DNA of 42,061 nt from Candidatus Thalassarchaeaceae archaeon. GTDB taxonomy: Archaea > Thermoplasmatota > Poseidoniia > Poseidoniales > Thalassarchaeaceae. The notes under the pieces are model-generated. The model was not told the DNA's origin, ran no database searches, and saw only the letters and a list, made by a program, of their open reading frames with translations. The position numbers and the translations under genes were made by a program. Location of the stretch: assembly GCA_030747675.1 (NCBI GenBank), contig JASLKH010000077.1:1-42061 (forward strand). The letters are read 5' to 3'. Shown here piece by piece: positions 18,512-24,407 of this stretch. How positions within the stretch are numbered: the first letter of the stretch is position 1; each line of letters begins with the position of its first letter.

Positions 18512-18985
18512 ATGCGGAGGAGGGGGGACAAGGTGTGGTACCAACAAGGTGTACCATTCCTATGTCTGCCAGATTGTGGCAAATGCTGTAATCAACCTGG
18601 TGGCGTGGTATTTCTTGCCAGGCATGATGCGGCCAAACTTGCAACACATTTTTCGATGGAAGTAGAATCGTGGCTGGAACAAGATTGTAGAAGAAGTGCC
18701 GATGGTCGTTGGGTATTAAAATCAAAAGGTGAGGATGGAAGTTGTATTTATCTCAATGATGACAACCAATGCACAGTATATGACAGTAAACCAGATCAAT
18801 GTTCTGCATTTCCATGGTGGAATGAAAATATGCGTTCTACTAGAGATTGGCACAAAACAATCCAATTATGCCCAGGATTGAGACATCCTGATGCCAAAAA
18901 AATCCCTTTGCCAGTAATCCAATCACATTTGGATGCTGATGCTGTGGCCGAGAAGGGTTTTCGTGTTTGGAAAAACAAAATCTAA
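18512..18985 (+). CDS. YkgJ/UPF0153-family cysteine-cluster protein
   Basis: CLPDCGKCC, CIYLNDDNQCTVYDSKPDQCSAFPWW and CPG. Confidence 0.88.
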   Translation: MRRRGDKVWYQQGVPFLCLPDCGKCCNQPGGVVFLARHDAAKLATHFSMEVESWLEQDCRRSADGRWVLKSKGEDGSCIYLNDDNQCTVYDSKPDQCSAFPWWNENMRSTRDWHKTIQLCPGLRHPDAKKIPLPVIQSHLDADAVAEKGFRVWKNKI

Positions 18986-20860
18986 CTACTCTACAGAAAT
19001 CGGCAATAAAACTCTCCTTTTAAGTGGGCGTAGTATTGCTTTCATTTCTCTTTGAGGCTTCTTTGGAACCAATACTTTTCGGGATACTGGTTGCAATAAT
19101 TCACTAGGGTTGAAGTCTTCAACTTCAAGCCCCCTAACTCCAGTTGTTAAATCTCTTAATTTATCCAAATGCAATTCAATTGCTAGCATTCTATCAGCGA
19201 AGGATACCAATTCTGATTCACTAGCAGAACCAATCTGATCTGAAATCTCTGAAATTTCACTGGTCAATTCACGCAATTCAAATCGGTGCTCGTGAATTAC
19301 ATTTTCTAAACGACCAAGGGCATTATCAGTCAATGCCTCTAGATTTGAGCCTGCAAATAATTCCGGCTTTGAAGTCGCTGCTCTACTTCTAGCCTCAATC
19401 TCCTGTAAGTGGCCTCTTAATTGATCACCTGCAATTTTTTGTGCAGAATCATAAGAATTGGGTAACGATATTTGCGGGGGCTCGTAATCATCATTCCAAT
19501 CTAAACCCTTACTAATAATCTCGGCTCGATAATCTGCCGGCTCCGGTAAAACAGTATCTAACACATCAGAGACAATTTTAGCCCCAATAGAATCAGAATC
19601 TAATACCGTTTCGATTTCATTATCACGCATCAATGGTTCATTTCCCGATAGCAATGAAATTATCTCAGCTGTACCTATCAATTCAGCACCAGATTCTATA
19701 GAAAGACAAACTGTTTCGAACTCTGCCTTGGCCCTACTCCATTCACCTCTACACCTTGATGCAATTATTTTCAACTGCGGATCTGTGAGAGATACGCCCC
19801 TTGAAAGGGAATTTTTCCTGAGAAAAAGAAGTACTGTTTCCTCGGATGGTTGTTTGAGTTCTACGTGTACACCTGCCAAAATAGCCTGTCGAAGTCGCCC
19901 CACGGGAAGGCTATCTGAGGATAGTTTTCGAGAAGATGTCAGAACTACTTGAGCACCAATATCAATTGCCCAACCCACCAAATTTGCAAGTAAATCAGCA
20001 CCTTTTGGTCTTCTGATGATTCTATCTGTATCATCGATAAGTAGAGTGCTTGCTCTCATCAATAAGTCATCCCAACCATCAGGTAACTCTTCGGCAGGAA
20101 ATGTTTCTGATGTTATCAATCGAACATCTCGGTCAGGAATATTTGCTGCAAGAGAGTCCCCTATAGCCCAGAGCAAGTGACTTTTCCCCGAACTAGAAGG
20201 ACCGGAAATGAGGAGAGGGTTCAACCTTTTACCTGGGTAATCAATAACTTCGTTAGCAGCTTGAGTGGCCACTCTATTCGATGGGCCACGCTGCCATTTA
20301 CTGAAATTGGAATTCGGCCTTGGGGACAAAATTGGTGGCCAATAACCGGCATAATGTACTGAAGGTGACATCGGTTCAGTAATCTGAGGGCTGCCTAATT
20401 CTGCTTCAGTAAGTGGTTCTGGAGGCGAAATATGTCGTTGTTGATCAAGAACTTCTCTCCAAACTGGTCGGACACCGTCTCGATCTGTTGGAGAATCCTC
20501 GCCGACGACCCAGCGAGGTGTCCCCGGTGGTAATTCTGAAGGATCAACTTCCAATTCCAAAGGACTACTCTGGAGTATTCGAGATCGCATAGCTTCCATC
20601 CGAGAATGAACTGTTTCAGCATAATTTGTCTCATCGCCACTCAATATCGAAAGGCGGTCGAGAGGACCGGGGGCATCACTTGGTAAATCGTGACGTTCAA
20701 TGAAGCGCTGTTCGGAACGCTTCTTTTCTCTAATTGAAATATGGTCAAACAACGTACTCTTTTGTTCATTTTTCCGATCATCATCGCCTCCAGAATGACC
20801 AAGGAATCTTCGACTCCTTTCCATTGCTTCACGGAAATTGGAGCGGTTATGGATACTCAT
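18986..20860 (-). CDS. DnaA-like AAA+ ATPase (domain III only) with a disordered N-terminus and helical C-terminus
   Basis: NFSKWQRGPSNRVATQAANEVIDYPGKRLNPLLISGPSSSGKSHLLWAIG; LLIDD; QVVLTSSR; GRLRQAILAG; ELKQPSEET follow the DnaA domain III motifs in order. No domain IV HTH was recognised. Confidence 0.8.
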   Translation of the reverse strand: MSIHNRSNFREAMERSRRFLGHSGGDDDRKNEQKSTLFDHISIREKKRSEQRFIERHDLPSDAPGPLDRLSILSGDETNYAETVHSRMEAMRSRILQSSPLELEVDPSELPPGTPRWVVGEDSPTDRDGVRPVWREVLDQQRHISPPEPLTEAELGSPQITEPMSPSVHYAGYWPPILSPRPNSNFSKWQRGPSNRVATQAANEVIDYPGKRLNPLLISGPSSSGKSHLLWAIGDSLAANIPDRDVRLITSETFPAEELPDGWDDLLMRASTLLIDDTDRIIRRPKGADLLANLVGWAIDIGAQVVLTSSRKLSSDSLPVGRLRQAILAGVHVELKQPSEETVLLFLRKNSLSRGVSLTDPQLKIIASRCRGEWSRAKAEFETVCLSIESGAELIGTAEIISLLSGNEPLMRDNEIETVLDSDSIGAKIVSDVLDTVLPEPADYRAEIISKGLDWNDDYEPPQISLPNSYDSAQKIAGDQLRGHLQEIEARSRAATSKPELFAGSNLEALTDNALGRLENVIHEHRFELRELTSEISEISDQIGSASESELVSFADRMLAIELHLDKLRDLTTGVRGLEVEDFNPSELLQPVSRKVLVPKKPQREMKAILRPLKRRVLLPISVE

Positions 20861-22884
20861 TTTTCGGCCTCCTCTAAGGACATTAGTGCGTTCTCAGGAT
20901 TAATCTCAAACATATCAATGATGTGTTTAGTTTCAATTCCTTTTTCGTCTAATAATTTAATCCTCTGCCAAATCGTTGATTCCTTATTGCCTCTTGCAGA
21001 AAAAGCATTCTCCATTGTGTGAATTCCAGATTTTTCTAAATCTGCTAACCTACCCGTCAAATGTAGTGTACGCTGAGCCTTACTACTTGCTTCCCTTACA
21101 GCATCGTTTGATGTTAAAGGTGGGGCTTGAATTTCTTGTTCAGAACCTGATGCCGCTCTAATTGCTGCATTCATACCAATTAATCGCATGTCAGGTTCAT
21201 CTTCAACACCAAAATCATTGCTGATTAGGCGTACTCGATTTGAGGCTGAATCAAGTACATCGCGACGACTTATTGCATCACCTGGAATGTTAACAGCGGC
21301 TTCGACATCTGTGGCTTTTGAAGCAGCCAATGCTAGACCATCTCGGGACAATTTTGTTGAGTCTTCAAAGAGTAATTCTCCAACTTCTTGTTTTACTTTC
21401 CCTGAATCTGGGAGGGCTTTCCTAATTCGCTTAACACGGCGGACTCTGCGGGGAGAATTACCTCTGTGGTTCACCGTAGGTTTCCTTGGGCCTTTGACTT
21501 CAATTTCTATTGGCTTAATCTGTTCGGTTTCGACTGGCTCTTTTTCAATTAATTCTGGAATTTCATCAACGATTTCAACAGAATCATCTGTACTGGTTTC
21601 AACGCCTCTATTTGCTGAAGGGGCTAATGCCCATTCAGGTAAATTGTCATCGTCTTCTTCAACGGTTCCACCATCCTCGAACGATGATGTAGCCTTTGTT
21701 GCAACATCTCCAAGTTCACTGTGCCTCTCTTCCCGCCAAGCCTCAACCAAACCACTAATGGAATATCGATTGACATCTTGGGATGGTAGCGGATCCGTAG
21801 ATTCAGGTTGAATTAATTCGGATTCAATCGGGTCTGGTATTTCAATTGCAATCCAATCGTCTGAGCAAAACGGATGCCCCTCCAAGCGTGCAGGTCTCTC
21901 AGCCCAATGAATCACTCTCTCATTGTTTAGCACATCGATTTCACGCGACAGAATTGATCGCTGGCGAGAATCCCAAACATCTAGATCCGCTGGCATTAAA
22001 AGCAAATTTTCCGATGTGGTAAATGTATCAACCAATGAGCGAATGAAATCGAGAGTTCGGTTGAAACCGTGATACCCTGAAAGAAATTCAAGACCATCTA
22101 AAACGATACATGCTCGAGTATTTCCGAATAAGAAATCATTAATCTTACGACGTATTTCTTCGAGAGCAACGCTGAGAGTATTTTCCCCACTACCCTTTTC
22201 AGTTAACCATGCAGTCAAATCTACTGGAATCCCCATTTCCGATTCCAACCGATTGGTAGGTATTCTTGAAATCACCAAAAGTGGATGCCCTATAGACCCT
22301 AGGTGGGATGCAATCTGAATTGTTTCTGTTGGAGAAGGAGAGTCAATTAACGCCACCATGCCCGGCAATATTTCTGAACCTGGGTGGAATGGCAGAGGTG
22401 GTAAATTCGAATCTAGAATTTCCTCTACTTGTTCGTCTTGATCGGTCCAATCATCGAGTTTTTTCCATTGCCTCTTCTTGCGTTGTCTTTCTCGCCACCA
22501 CAATTCAGACTCATCTGAATCAGCCCATTGAATGGATTCCCCTGCATCTAAATGGAGGCGTGCCAAGGGATGTAAATCTTCTATGATATCTAAATTAATA
22601 TCTAAGTGACATGACAATTGGCTACCTTCCAACCTTGATGCTTCTTGAAATGCACCTAGCGCCGTATGCCCAATCATCAAAGTTCCATCTGATGTTTCAA
22701 ACAGCACCATTGAAGGTGTCCCTTCACGAATGGTGATTTGCCCCACTGCACCTCCTAGTGCTCCTGCTTCACAACGAATGTAGCCCGTTTCGGAACGTTT
22801 CTGCATATCGACCAAAAGAAGTTCGAGAACACCAGCGCCACCACGCCGAGATTCCGTCAAATTGCCCCTAGGTAGTTCGACCAT
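20857..22884 (-). CDS. DUF835-domain protein with an N-terminal DUF2226/PATAN-like domain and acidic C-terminal tail
   Basis: The central region LVISRIP...AWLTEKGSGENTL...IVLDGLEFLSGYHGFNRTLDFIRSLVD...QRSILSREI fits DUF835. The N-terminus MVELPRG...LLVDMQKRSETGYIR...GQITIREGTPSMVLFE resembles DUF2226/DUF4388. Its stop overlaps the next ATG. Confidence 0.8.
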   Translation of the reverse strand: MVELPRGNLTESRRGGAGVLELLLVDMQKRSETGYIRCEAGALGGAVGQITIREGTPSMVLFETSDGTLMIGHTALGAFQEASRLEGSQLSCHLDINLDIIEDLHPLARLHLDAGESIQWADSDESELWWRERQRKKRQWKKLDDWTDQDEQVEEILDSNLPPLPFHPGSEILPGMVALIDSPSPTETIQIASHLGSIGHPLLVISRIPTNRLESEMGIPVDLTAWLTEKGSGENTLSVALEEIRRKINDFLFGNTRACIVLDGLEFLSGYHGFNRTLDFIRSLVDTFTTSENLLLMPADLDVWDSRQRSILSREIDVLNNERVIHWAERPARLEGHPFCSDDWIAIEIPDPIESELIQPESTDPLPSQDVNRYSISGLVEAWREERHSELGDVATKATSSFEDGGTVEEDDDNLPEWALAPSANRGVETSTDDSVEIVDEIPELIEKEPVETEQIKPIEIEVKGPRKPTVNHRGNSPRRVRRVKRIRKALPDSGKVKQEVGELLFEDSTKLSRDGLALAASKATDVEAAVNIPGDAISRRDVLDSASNRVRLISNDFGVEDEPDMRLIGMNAAIRAASGSEQEIQAPPLTSNDAVREASSKAQRTLHLTGRLADLEKSGIHTMENAFSARGNKESTIWQRIKLLDEKGIETKHIIDMFEINPENALMSLEEAEK

Positions 22885-22950: not shown

Positions 22951-23016
22951 GGTGCTGTTTTTTGGAGAAGATGTTAGAAGCGGTATGATTGAGACGTAGA
23001 GGTGTTTCGGAGGTTC

Positions 23017-23682
23017 ATGGCTGAAACCCCAAAGGGCACCCGGAAAATGTCCGACACTGAAGTGGGGGATTCATGGGTCGATTCTGCCCTGGTGTGGAAA
23101 AAAACATTTTATCAACTCTTAATTTTAGGTGTCGCATCGACAGCAACAAATTGGCTGACTCAAAGCACTACAATCTGGATATTCTATCTAGTCGTAACCA
23201 TACTACTAATTTGGAAAACTACATCCCAAATATCAGAAAAAAAAGAGGTTTTAGAGATAATTTCCCTTAGTGAAGGGCATCCATGGCATGATTCAGAAGG
23301 AACAGGAAAAGCATCAGTATTTGTTTCAGACTCCAATTTGGAATGGGTCAAATTAAAGACAAATGTTAGAGTAATCGTAACAAAGGATCCCTTACTTCCA
23401 AGATGGATTCTAAGAGAAGAGGACATTGAGGGGGCAATTATTGCTCGGTGGGATCAAAAGCCGCATGAAAATTTCATACCATTACTAAATATGGCTCAAG
23501 CACTAGCAGATGCCCAAAACAGGAGTTTGGATTCAGAGGACCCTATTGAAGAAGCCAGAGCAAGAGAAGATGTCGGAGAAAGCTTACTTGAGCGCGAATG
23601 GGAAGATACCGAACCAGGTAGTACTAATTACAAACCGGGAGCGCTTTTACGTTCCTTCAAAAACAAAGATGAGGGCGAATGA
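23017..23682 (+). CDS. Hypothetical membrane protein
   Basis: Two N-terminal TM segments and an acidic C-terminus; GGAGG precedes the ATG at 23017 (ORF is open from 23002). Confidence 0.7.
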   Translation: MAETPKGTRKMSDTEVGDSWVDSALVWKKTFYQLLILGVASTATNWLTQSTTIWIFYLVVTILLIWKTTSQISEKKEVLEIISLSEGHPWHDSEGTGKASVFVSDSNLEWVKLKTNVRVIVTKDPLLPRWILREEDIEGAIIARWDQKPHENFIPLLNMAQALADAQNRSLDSEDPIEEARAREDVGESLLEREWEDTEPGSTNYKPGALLRSFKNKDEGE

Positions 23683-23756: not shown

Positions 23757-24407
23757 ATGACATGGCGCGACCGACTTGGTGAGTTGCCTATCGAACAACG
23801 CAACCTCATAGAGGGTGGGGGGTTGTCTCAAAGATTTTCCAAAATGCCACTTGGAATCACTCATCCCGCTTTAATTGGTGCATTTTATGGTATTCTAATC
23901 ACATTGACACTACTATTGCCATTAGGTGAGAATAGTAATTGGCAGAAAAATTGGGTTAGAGATTGGGCATGGATTGGAGTTTGGATTATTCTTCTCAATG
24001 CAATCGTAAGTCACATTTCGCTCCTCGTTGCAGGTATTCTGCGTAGGCCCCCGGTTTCATTACCTCGATCAATTGTTTATCCTATGCCATTTTTGGGATT
24101 AATTTTATTCACAATTATTTTGATTACAGACCTGGAAAATAATTTGCCTGACCCACTAATTTTACCAGCACAATACTTTTCTTTGATGTTATTACTTATC
24201 CCTGGCCCAATTTACGTTCATATGACATGGGCTCCACGATGGAGATTATTGTGTAAACTTGAAGATAATCTTGATCCTTTCGAAGGTGAGATTTATACTC
24301 CAAAAAAGACTGAATTAGAAGATTTACAAAGTGATGCTGATTTTGATAGTGCAATAGAAAGCATAGAAAAAGAGCCCCCATTAATCAATCAAAATGAAGA
24401 AGAATGA
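23757..24407 (+). CDS. Hypothetical membrane protein (about 4 TM)
   Basis: 216-aa ORF with four hydrophobic segments and an acidic tail; its stop abuts the convergent stop at 24408. Confidence 0.72.
   Translation: MTWRDRLGELPIEQRNLIEGGGLSQRFSKMPLGITHPALIGAFYGILITLTLLLPLGENSNWQKNWVRDWAWIGVWIILLNAIVSHISLLVAGILRRPPVSLPRSIVYPMPFLGLILFTIILITDLENNLPDPLILPAQYFSLMLLLIPGPIYVHMTWAPRWRLLCKLEDNLDPFEGEIYTPKKTELEDLQSDADFDSAIESIEKEPPLINQNEEE

What the first reader, a model, noticed from the sequence alone, without database searches (positions are those of the whole stretch)
18986..22884. Coupled pair: PATAN/DUF2226-like + DUF835 protein and a DnaA-type ATPase, a candidate undescribed archaeal signalling or positioning system
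Seen: two large minus-strand genes joined by an ATGA overlap at 20857-20860. Gene 1 has an N-terminal domain (~22555-22884), a clear DUF835 domain (~21925-22360) and a long acidic tail. Gene 2 has a DnaA domain-III ATPase between a low-complexity N-terminus and a helical C-terminus. Established: DUF835 is an inactivated KaiC/RecA-fold domain linked to archaeal signal transduction, and PATAN/DUF4388-type domains occur in bacterial proteins tied to polarity and motility signalling. Inference: the two proteins form a nucleotide-switch complex, with DUF835 as adaptor or sensor and the AAA+ protein as effector or scaffold, for example in cell-cycle or spatial control. I know of no characterised DnaA-fold/DUF835 system.
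Basis: partly seen in the sequence, partly recalled or inferred. Interest (0 to 1): 0.82.

Follow-up and report, generated by a model that had tools for sequence, protein, structure and literature searches.

The report
Split archaeal DnaA-core / dead-KaiC gene pair
A marine Group II archaeon carries two co-translated genes that are the separated, partly degenerate pieces of an unstudied archaeal protein built around the ATPase core of the bacterial replication starter DnaA; it most likely acts as an assembly scaffold or switch, not as a replication initiator, and its cellular job is still unknown.

Summary
Two minus-strand genes (20857-22884, 675 aa; 18986-20860, 624 aa) share an ATGA stop/start overlap. 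Gene 1 is a PATAN/DUF2226-like N-domain (structural resemblance only), DUF835 (a RecA/KaiC fold without a P-loop) and a long tail. Gene 2 is a DnaA domain-III AAA+ core plus a helical C-terminus, with no DNA-binding domain IV.

The pair is adjacent in all 30 Poseidoniales loci examined and was lost once, in the streamlined Thalassarchaeaceae clade. In other Thermoplasmatota the same three domains are fused in one protein (35 of the 150 best cluster representatives).

The fused forms keep all DnaA catalytic motifs. The Poseidoniales split forms lack the arginine finger (0/31 basic), have a shortened initiator-specific motif, and often replace the Walker A lysine (13/31; intact in this window).

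Links to the archaellum, the replication origin and defence systems found no support. A pilus-type link is a weak lead. No paper describing the family was found. This scan has reported the family before on other DNA, in both fused and split forms. Function remains unknown; interest is moderate to high.

The parts
20857..22884 (-). Gene 1 (675 aa): PATAN-like N-domain + DUF835 (inactivated KaiC) + long tail with short conserved motifs
   Evidence: ORF; translation; Pfam DUF835; family alignment
22540..22884 (-). N-domain, aa 1-115, the best-conserved part of gene 1; alpha/beta fold resembling PatA_N (PATAN)/DUF2226 and, more distantly, Roadblock
   Evidence: AF2 pLDDT ~90-96; ESM-Atlas structural TM 0.81 to DUF2226 and 0.79-0.81 to PatA_N clusters; no Pfam HMM hit
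21865..22389 (-). DUF835 domain, aa ~166-340: RecA/KaiC fold lacking a Walker A motif
   Evidence: Pfam; Foldseek and VIA top hits FlaH 4yds (Z 13.6), PH0284, KaiC; no GK[ST] in the alignment
21385..21849 (-). Tail: acidic stretch aa 346-460, then the conserved basic patch aa 461-500 (GPRxP...R motif, P466 nearly invariant)
   Evidence: composition; conservation
20857..20860 (-). ATGA stop/start overlap between gene 1 and gene 2; GGAGG at 20868-20872
   Evidence: an exact 4-nt overlap recurs in 16 of 30 related loci (coordinates)
18986..20860 (-). Gene 2 (624 aa): weakly conserved N-region + DnaA domain-III AAA+ core + helical (coiled-coil-like) C-region + tail motifs; no DnaA domain IV
19631..20368 (-). 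DnaA domain-III core, aa ~165-410. Walker A GPSSSGKS and Walker B LLIDD are intact here. The ISM is shortened, the box VII Arg-finger position is Ala326, and sensor II is altered
   Evidence: Foldseek 8bv3_A/2z4r_A
19151..19456 (-). Long helices aa ~469-570 (probable oligomerisation region)
   Evidence: AF2 secondary structure, pLDDT 70-92
18512..18985 (+). CxxCxxCC (PF03692, YkgJ-type) Cys-cluster protein, 157 aa. Always next to gene 2; same-strand and overlapping its stop in most Poseidoniaceae, inverted (convergent) in this window. Probable third member
   Evidence: Pfam; adjacency 30/30; not found in 5/5 genomes lacking the pair
23002..23682 (+). 226-aa membrane protein (at least one TM, aa 52-70), divergently transcribed from gene 1; same phyletic pattern; possible fourth member (weak)
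   Evidence: (seen in 22/30 loci; the other 8 loci may end too close to gene 1)

Best explanation
The two genes encode the two halves of one machine. In other Thermoplasmatota that machine is a single polypeptide: PATAN-like N-domain, DnaA domain-III AAA+ core, then DUF835 (inactivated KaiC). In Poseidoniales the ancestral gene was rearranged into two co-translated proteins, which I infer still associate. Gene 1 supplies the PATAN-like interaction domain, the P-loop-less RecA-fold domain and a long tail with short linear motifs. Gene 2 supplies the DnaA core and a helical oligomerisation region. The split DnaA core has lost the trans-acting arginine finger everywhere, has a shortened initiator-specific motif, and often has no Walker A lysine. 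The complex therefore most likely works as a nucleotide-binding (at most slowly hydrolysing) or nucleotide-independent assembly scaffold or adaptor that brings partners together. It is not a replication initiator or a motor. Shown: domain identities, conserved adjacency and overlap, fusion in relatives, motif decay. Inferred: physical association, scaffold role. Unknown: the partners and the cellular process.
For: Domains. Linkage: both genes were found in 98/151 Poseidoniales genomes, in the same genera. They are adjacent on the same strand in 30/30 fetched loci, with an exact 4-nt overlap in 16 and ATGA in the window. Fusion: N-domain + Bac_DnaA + DUF835 occur in one ORF in L067, L068 and L072, and DnaA + DUF835 in L064 and L069. 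Of the 150 best cluster representatives, 35 are fused, 4 more are DnaA-III + DUF835 without the N-domain, and 52 have the split gene-1 architecture. Descent: the Poseidoniales DnaA cores form one clade (0.987) on a long branch nested among the fused forms. Motif decay: fused and solo archaeal forms keep GxGK[TS]H, a full ISM, DRP, RLxxRF and NxRELEG like bacterial DnaA, whereas split forms do not. In split forms the Arg-finger position is basic in 0/31 and the Walker A Lys is kept in 18/31. Not an initiator: there is no domain IV hit, TIGR00362 scores 79.9 bits against a cut-off of 343.9, Orc1/Cdc6 genes are present, and the locus lies about 300 kb from the nearest one in a single-contig genome.
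Against: No direct evidence that the two proteins bind each other. The domain order differs from a simple split (fused: N-domain, DnaA, DUF835; split: N-domain + DUF835 | DnaA), so the geometry of the fused protein need not be preserved. In this window Walker A and Walker B are intact, so ATP binding and perhaps hydrolysis may persist, which favours a switch over a pure scaffold. The whole neighbourhood is syntenic across the order, so adjacency alone is weak evidence. The absence from streamlined genera reflects a single loss event. The DnaA-III tree has moderate backbone support and long branches.
Confidence: 0.55

Rival explanations
1. An active ATP-dependent switch. Gene 2 binds and hydrolyses ATP, using another basic residue (for example R322 or R324) in trans, and DUF835 senses or transmits the nucleotide state.
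For: The window protein keeps GPSSSGKS and LLIDD. R322 is kept in 23/31 members. Fused relatives have fully canonical motifs and are probably active.
Against: The Walker A Lys is replaced by Arg, Cys or Thr in 13/31 members, mostly Poseidoniaceae, although the protein is otherwise conserved. The canonical Arg-finger position is never basic. Sensor I DRP and sensor II NxRELEG are altered. A function shared by the whole family therefore cannot depend on canonical hydrolysis.
Confidence: 0.22
2. A regulator or adaptor of a type-IV-pilus-like (T2SSE/T2SSF) surface or DNA-handling machine, docking through the PATAN-like domain.
For: The PATAN domain of cyanobacterial PatA-type regulators binds the pilus ATPase PilB1 (bioRxiv 10.1101/2021.06.11.447907). 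A DnaA-III + T2SSE fusion exists (L065). Within Thalassarchaeaceae, the ~415-aa and ~515-aa T2SSE classes occur only in module-positive genera. One sits in an operon with an SSB-like OB-fold protein and a split T2SSF.
Against: All module-negative genera form one clade, so the co-distribution is a single loss event in a streamlining lineage. There is no genomic adjacency between the module and these operons. The N-domain is PATAN-like only by predicted structure. The archaellum, another T2SSE machine, does not co-vary.
Confidence: 0.12
3. A DNA-metabolism accessory factor (replication or repair regulator, or ssDNA-binding assembly), reflecting the ancestry of the DnaA and RecA folds.
For: DnaA-III fold and RecA-like fold. 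Fused homologues lie directly next to PolB (L076), topoisomerase I (L079) and a Rad51-family gene (L072, overlapping), and within about two genes of an XPD-like helicase (L084) and GyrB (L067).
Against: No DnaA domain IV or other DNA-binding domain was detected. The ISM, which contacts ssDNA in DnaA, is shortened in the split form. The locus is not near Orc1/Cdc6. The Poseidoniales neighbours are metabolic genes. The neighbour pattern was noticed post hoc in about 13 loci, some of them related.
Confidence: 0.08
4. Two unrelated neighbours kept together only by general synteny, or a defence island component.
For: The whole region is syntenic across the order.
Against: Recurrent fusion of the same domains in other lineages. 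Conserved stop/start overlap. No PADLOC match. Vertical inheritance within a housekeeping context.
Confidence: 0.03

Closest known systems
Bacterial replication initiator DnaA, domain III (Pfam PF00308; TIGR00362; PDB 8BV3, 2Z4R, 2HCB/3R8F)
   Same: AAA+ initiator-clade fold (TM by target 0.85 to 8bv3_A); the Walker A/B layout; the lead-in 'PGxxxNPL' and the lid domain.
   Different: No domains I, II or IV. Shortened ISM, no box VII arginine finger, altered sensor I and II. A helical C-terminal extension. Archaeal host that has Orc1/Cdc6. Score far below the DnaA equivalog cut-off.
Hda (DnaA-related regulatory inactivator; TIGR03420; PDB 3BOS, 5X06)
   Same: A DnaA-III-only protein that does not bind DnaA boxes and works through protein contacts; structural hits at E 2.4e-10 and 2.3e-7.
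   Different: Hda keeps its arginine finger and acts on DnaA-ATP with the beta clamp. Here there is no DnaA to act on, no QL[SP]LPL-type clamp motif at the N-terminus, 39 bits against a cut-off of 194.8, and a dedicated DUF835 partner.
Uncharacterised Thermoplasmatota fusion family: PATAN-like N-domain, DnaA-III, DUF835 (database names such as 'DnaA ATPase domain-containing protein'; for example L068:5005-6840:-, 611 aa)
   Same: All three domains are homologous by HMM. The Poseidoniales core nests within this family.
   Different: Here the domains are split over two co-translated genes in a different order, with decayed catalytic motifs, long tails and a CxxCxxCC neighbour. The fused forms instead have a convergent double-zinc-ribbon protein and often a KaiC-like ATPase nearby.
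DUF835 / iKaiC output domains of archaeal signal transduction (PF05763; Galperin et al. 2018, PMC5847659)
   Same: Gene 1 carries a bona fide DUF835 (69.8 bits) with a RecA/KaiC fold and no P-loop.
   Different: The published architectures are REC-DUF835, PAS-DUF835 or membrane sensor-DUF835. Association with a DnaA core and a PATAN-like domain is not mentioned in the one held paper that names DUF835.
PATAN (PatA_N, PF14332) / DUF2226 (PF09987) domains
   Same: Similar predicted fold and size; N-terminal position in a multidomain regulator.
   Different: No HMM-level similarity. DUF2226 was not detected over its cut-off in 201 Thermoplasmatota genomes. Roadblock/LC7 is also a structural neighbour (TM 0.72).

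Membership tests
DnaA/Hda AAA+ family (Pfam Bac_DnaA PF00308) | Domain-III sequence profile above the Pfam gathering score | tested here: met
   57.6 bits against a cut-off of 23, aa 185-315
DnaA/Hda AAA+ family (Pfam Bac_DnaA PF00308) | DnaA domain-III three-dimensional fold | tested here: met
   AF2 model against 8bv3_A: E 4e-14, TM by target 0.85, rmsd 2.6 A; also 2z4r_A
Chromosomal replication initiator DnaA (TIGR00362 equivalog) | Full-length equivalog score | tested here: not met
   79.9 bits against a cut-off of 343.9
Chromosomal replication initiator DnaA (TIGR00362 equivalog) | C-terminal DnaA-box-binding domain IV (PF08299) | tested here: not met
   No hit at E<=1; the C-terminus models as long helices
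Chromosomal replication initiator DnaA (TIGR00362 equivalog) | Box VII arginine finger (RLxSRF) | tested here: not met
   The aligned position is Ala326 in the window protein and non-basic in 31/31 family members
Chromosomal replication initiator DnaA (TIGR00362 equivalog) | Full-length initiator-specific motif (ISM) | tested here: not met
   About 10-13 residues shorter than in bacterial DnaA P0060 and in the fused archaeal forms
Chromosomal replication initiator DnaA (TIGR00362 equivalog) | Walker A GxxGxGK[ST] and Walker B hhhhDD | tested here: met
   GPSSSGKS and LLIDD in the window protein. The Lys is replaced in 13/31 relatives
Hda (TIGR03420) | Equivalog score; N-terminal clamp-binding motif | tested here: not met
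   39.1 bits against a cut-off of 194.8; no QL[SP]LPL-like motif in the N-terminus
DUF835 / inactivated KaiC (PF05763) | Profile above the gathering score | tested here: met
   69.8 bits against a cut-off of 33.1; 28/31 family members hit
DUF835 / inactivated KaiC (PF05763) | RecA/KaiC fold without a Walker A P-loop | tested here: met
   VIA Z 13.6 to FlaH 4yds and 11.8 to KaiC 8dba; the loop after strand 1 reads DSPSPTE with no GK[ST]
PATAN / PatA_N (PF14332) and DUF2226 (PF09987) | Sequence-profile match | tested here: not met
   No hit at E<=5 in any of 31 members, nor in the fused forms at E<=0.01
PATAN / PatA_N (PF14332) and DUF2226 (PF09987) | Shared fold | tested here: inconclusive
   ESM-Atlas predicted models: TM by query 0.81 (DUF2226 cluster; 0.67 by target) and 0.79-0.81 (PatA_N clusters), but also 0.72 to Roadblock/LC7. 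Both sides are predictions, and no solved PATAN structure was compared
Thermoplasmatota PATAN-like / DnaA-III / DUF835 fusion family | All three homologous domains present | tested here: met
   HMMs built from the window's family match the N-domain, DnaA-III and DUF835 of L067, L068, L072 and 35 representatives
Thermoplasmatota PATAN-like / DnaA-III / DUF835 fusion family | Single polypeptide with canonical DnaA catalytic motifs | tested here: not met
   Two genes here; motifs decayed
Known anti-phage defence systems (PADLOC-DB 2.0) | Any component model match | tested here: not met
   No family at E<=0.01 for the four proteins

The most novel reading that the evidence does not exclude
The pair, together with the fused family it derives from, defines a previously undescribed archaeal assembly system. 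In it, a DnaA-type AAA+ oligomeriser captured from bacteria is coupled to an inactivated KaiC domain and a PATAN-like docking domain, and organises a membrane or surface machine (for example a type-IV-pilus-like or DNA-handling apparatus). Poseidoniales would represent a stage in which the engine has become a pseudo-ATPase scaffold.
Probability: 0.3. Interest if true: 0.8.

Novelty: new variant of a known kind. Interest (0 to 1): 0.6.

Why it matters
Marine Group II archaea are among the most abundant planktonic archaea and are uncultured, so conserved genes without any functional assignment are blind spots in models of their biology. The result shows that the ATPase core of the bacterial replication initiator has a second, non-replicative life across the archaeal phylum Thermoplasmatota, and that in one order it was split and lost its catalytic signature while staying under selection. 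That makes a concrete, testable case of an AAA+ protein evolving into a probable pseudo-ATPase scaffold. It also offers natural 'before and after' proteins (fused active-looking against split degenerate) for biochemical comparison. Finally, it warns annotators that the label 'DnaA/Hda family protein' in these genomes does not indicate a bacterial-type replication system.

Tried and rejected
1. **Complex prediction.** A job with gene 1 aa 1-345 plus gene 2 aa 165-624, using paired 31-row alignments, returned 'no answer' (ipSAE 0.00). It counts neither for nor against binding.

2. **Archaellum link: rejected.** Archaellin PF01917 was not found in module-positive genera g2, g3 and g10, and is present in module-negative genera g9 and g13.

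3. **Replication-origin proximity: not seen.** Orc1/Cdc6 lie at 0.70 and 1.83 Mb against the module at 1.52 Mb in G003, and on other contigs in G000.

4. **Defence system.** No PADLOC hit.

5. **PATAN/DUF2226 by sequence.** No HMM hit. A PF09987 search of 201 Thermoplasmatota genomes gave nothing over the cut-off, so I could not build a profile-profile test. The wide structural search was filled by the RecA-like domain and did not test the N-domain.

6. **Accessory genes beside the fused forms.** Homologues of the 226-aa and CxxCxxCC genes were not found next to the fused genes.

7. **Phyletic co-loss as evidence for a four-gene module and for a pilus link: downgraded.** All module-negative genera form one clade, so there was one loss event. 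The 216-aa gene at 23757-24407 is retained in 3/5 genomes lacking the pair and is not part of the module.

8. **Conserved context of the solo ~425-aa DnaA-III genes of another family.** The neighbours are methyltransferases, an RDD protein, TtuA and a TPR protein, which gave no functional hint.

9. **Makarova et al. 2017 (PMC5717392).** This is the primary description of iKaiC, but it is not held in the library, so I could not check whether it mentions a DnaA association.


Full report
**Observation.** The window is a contig of a Poseidoniales (Marine Group II) genome; database names on near-identical proteins point to Thalassarchaeaceae. ORFs at 20857-22884(-) (675 aa, P0001) and 18986-20860(-) (624 aa, P0002) exist as stated. 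The sequence shows the shared ATGA at 20857-20860 with a GGAGG about 7 nt upstream of the second start. P0001 has one Pfam hit, DUF835 at aa 186-316 (E 2.5e-19). P0002 hits Bac_DnaA at aa 185-315 (E 2.3e-15). It scores far below the equivalog cut-offs for DnaA (79.9 against 343.9 bits) and Hda (39.1 against 194.8 bits), and has no domain IV hit.

**Structure.**
- *DnaA core.* An AF2 model of P0002 aa 165-624 (31-row alignment, mean pLDDT 80) superposes on DnaA domain III (8bv3_A TM by target 0.85, rmsd 2.6 A; also 2z4r_A) and ends in long helices.
- *DUF835 domain.* A model of P0001 aa 1-345 (pLDDT 84) has two confident domains joined by a disordered linker. The second is a RecA/KaiC fold, with best hits FlaH 4yds (Z 13.6), PH0284 and KaiC. 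It has no Walker A motif, which agrees with the published label 'inactivated KaiC' for DUF835 (PMC5847659).
- *N-domain.* The N-domain (aa 1-115) matches no Pfam model in any of 31 family members. In the ESM Atlas its predicted structure superposes on clusters carrying DUF2226 (TM 0.81 by query, 0.67 by target) and PatA_N/PATAN (0.79-0.81), and less well on Roadblock/LC7 (0.72).
- *Tail.* The 'acidic tail' is an acidic stretch (aa 346-460) followed by a conserved basic patch (aa 461-500) and a mixed C-terminus.

**Distribution and linkage.** In a sample of 151 Poseidoniales genomes each gene was found in 98, in the same genera: all 74 of one family (f3), 2/2 of a second (f2), and 21/74 of the window's own family (f1).
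- In 30 fetched loci the two genes are always adjacent on one strand. There is an exact 4-nt overlap in 16.
- A CxxCxxCC (PF03692) gene always follows. It is same-strand and overlaps the stop of gene 2 in most f3 loci, but is inverted in this window.
- A 226-aa membrane protein gene is divergently placed upstream in the 22 loci where that side could be read.
- In genomes without the pair, the flanking citrate synthase and aminotransferase genes lie 82-1225 bp apart. The CxxCxxCC and 226-aa genes are not found there either.
- Two cautions apply. The wider neighbourhood is syntenic across the order. A marker-gene tree places all pair-negative genera in one clade (support 0.992), so there was a single loss in the streamlined small-genome lineage. 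Phyletic co-occurrence therefore adds little.

**Fusion in relatives.** This is the decisive evidence for a functional link. A profile of the DnaA-like protein finds DnaA-III domains in many other Thermoplasmatota families.
- Several of these sit in single ORFs together with the same N-domain and DUF835: L067 (743 aa), L068 (611 aa) and L072 (867 aa). Pfam confirms them with Bac_DnaA E 1e-57 to 1e-60 and DUF835 E 1e-21 to 1e-25.
- Other combinations are HEAT + DnaA + DUF835 + Zn-ribbon (L064), DnaA + DUF835 (L069) and DnaA + T2SSE ATPase (L065).
- A profile of gene 1 aa 1-345 was searched against 1.84 billion representatives. Among the 150 best hits, 35 were fused N-domain-DnaA-III-DUF835 proteins, 4 were DnaA-III-DUF835 proteins, and 52 had the split architecture.
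- Databases name these proteins only automatically. No held paper mentions DUF835 together with DnaA.
- In a DnaA-III tree the Poseidoniales proteins form one clade (0.987) on a long branch nested among fused forms. This fits an origin by rearrangement of a fused ancestor followed by fast divergence, but backbone supports are moderate.

**Catalytic motifs.** I aligned the cores with a bona fide bacterial DnaA (P0060). The fused and solo archaeal cores keep GxGK[TS]H, a full-length ISM, sensor I DRP, the box VII RLxxRF arginine finger and sensor II NxRELEG. The Poseidoniales cores differ in four ways:
- the ISM is shorter by about 10-13 residues;
- the Arg-finger position is non-basic in 31/31 (Ala326 here);
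- the sensors are altered;
- the Walker A Lys is replaced by Arg, Cys or Thr in 13/31, mostly in f3.

The window protein itself keeps Walker A and Walker B. A function common to the whole order thus cannot rest on canonical, oligomer-dependent ATP hydrolysis. Both P-loop-type domains of the pair look like binding or structural modules. Conserved short motifs in the tails fit a hub or adaptor: an N-terminal amphipathic helix, PEGEWDIDE...DDLL and a terminal GEEE in gene 2, and the basic GPRxP patch in gene 1.

**What it is not.**
- It is not a replication initiator. There is no DNA-binding domain, Orc1/Cdc6 genes are present, and the locus is about 300 kb from the nearest of them in a single-contig genome.
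- It is not tied to the archaellum.
- It matches no known defence system.

**Leads on partners.**
- *Zinc-ribbon and KaiC neighbours.* Next to fused genes a convergent double-zinc-ribbon protein recurs (L067, L074/75, L076, L081, L083), sometimes followed by a KaiC-like ATPase. Zn-ribbons are also fused in L063 and L064. The Poseidoniales CxxCxxCC protein occupies the same position but is not detectably homologous.
- *DNA-metabolism neighbours.* PolB, Topo I, an XPD-like helicase, a Rad51-like gene and GyrB appear near 5 of about 13 fused loci. This was noticed post hoc.
- *Pilus-like systems.* Prompted by an earlier scan note, I found that two non-archaellum T2SSE/T2SSF systems occur in Thalassarchaeaceae only in pair-positive genera. 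The PATAN domain is known to bind the pilus ATPase PilB1 in a cyanobacterium. But this co-distribution is the same single loss event.
- *Complex prediction.* The job gave no answer.

**Verdict.** The best reading is a split, catalytically decayed derivative of an uncharacterised Thermoplasmatota DnaA-core/iKaiC family that acts as an assembly scaffold or weak nucleotide switch. The cellular process is unknown. This scan has already reported the same family on other DNA (fused forms e1-5475947, e1-5614628, e1-5579742, e1-4987647, e1-5230684, e1-5579753; MGII split operon e1-5242152, e1-2803359). My independent tests agree with those readings. They add the single-loss phylogeny, the archaellum mismatch, the intact Walker A in this genus and the inverted CxxCxxCC gene.

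Noticed in passing
G000 contig C95 (locus L085:3096-8801): Conserved six-gene operon in the window's genome and in G002 (L087): a 580-aa protein with an SSB-like OB fold, two unknown proteins (323 and 114 aa), a split T2SSF platform (194 + 248 aa) and a short 417-aa T2SSE ATPase. It is a non-archaellum type-IV-filament-like system with a possible nucleic-acid-binding component.
   Followed up: partly
L065:5356-7797:+ (genome G169): An 813-aa Thermoplasmatota protein fusing a canonical DnaA domain III (E 1e-69) to a T2SSE (PilB/ArlI-type) ATPase with a PilB3-like C-terminus.
   Followed up: no
P0260, P0266, P0273, P0290: Gemmatimonadales bacteria carry ~640-660-aa 'DnaA/Hda family' proteins with a DnaA-III core but no DnaA C-terminal domain hit. 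This would be a bacterial non-initiator DnaA-core family; in the domain tree it sits among the archaeal fused forms.
   Followed up: no
L061, L062, L071, L066 (genomes G313, G198, G203, G157): One Thermoplasmatota family (23/24 genomes sampled) has a ~415-425-aa solo DnaA-III protein with fully canonical motifs and no domain IV. In L061, L062 and L071 it sits in a conserved context of methyltransferases, an RDD protein, TtuA and a TPR protein.
   Followed up: partly
window 18512-18985 compared with loci L021-L030: The CxxCxxCC gene is same-strand and overlaps the stop of the DnaA-like gene in most Poseidoniaceae. It is inverted (convergent, abutting the stop codon) in this window and in most Thalassarchaeaceae, which indicates a local inversion.
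   Followed up: partly
window 23757-24407 (+): A 216-aa protein without any Pfam hit, conserved across the order and retained in 3 of 5 genomes that lost the pair (one copy has an internal TAG).
   Followed up: partly
one search hit table (for example G049:C23:5586-5972, G119:C92:11866-12279): Most Poseidoniales genomes have a second, stand-alone DUF835 protein of ~290-340 aa elsewhere in the genome. It was not found in G000 (78% complete) or in the streamlined genera with this query.
   Followed up: no
L070:3452-4636:- and L070:5350-6954:- (genome G180): A 7TM (HisKA_7TM) + DUF835 membrane protein lies one gene away from a DnaA-III protein with an fn3/purple-acid-phosphatase-like N-terminus. 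This is another unfused DnaA-core/DUF835 neighbourhood.
   Followed up: no
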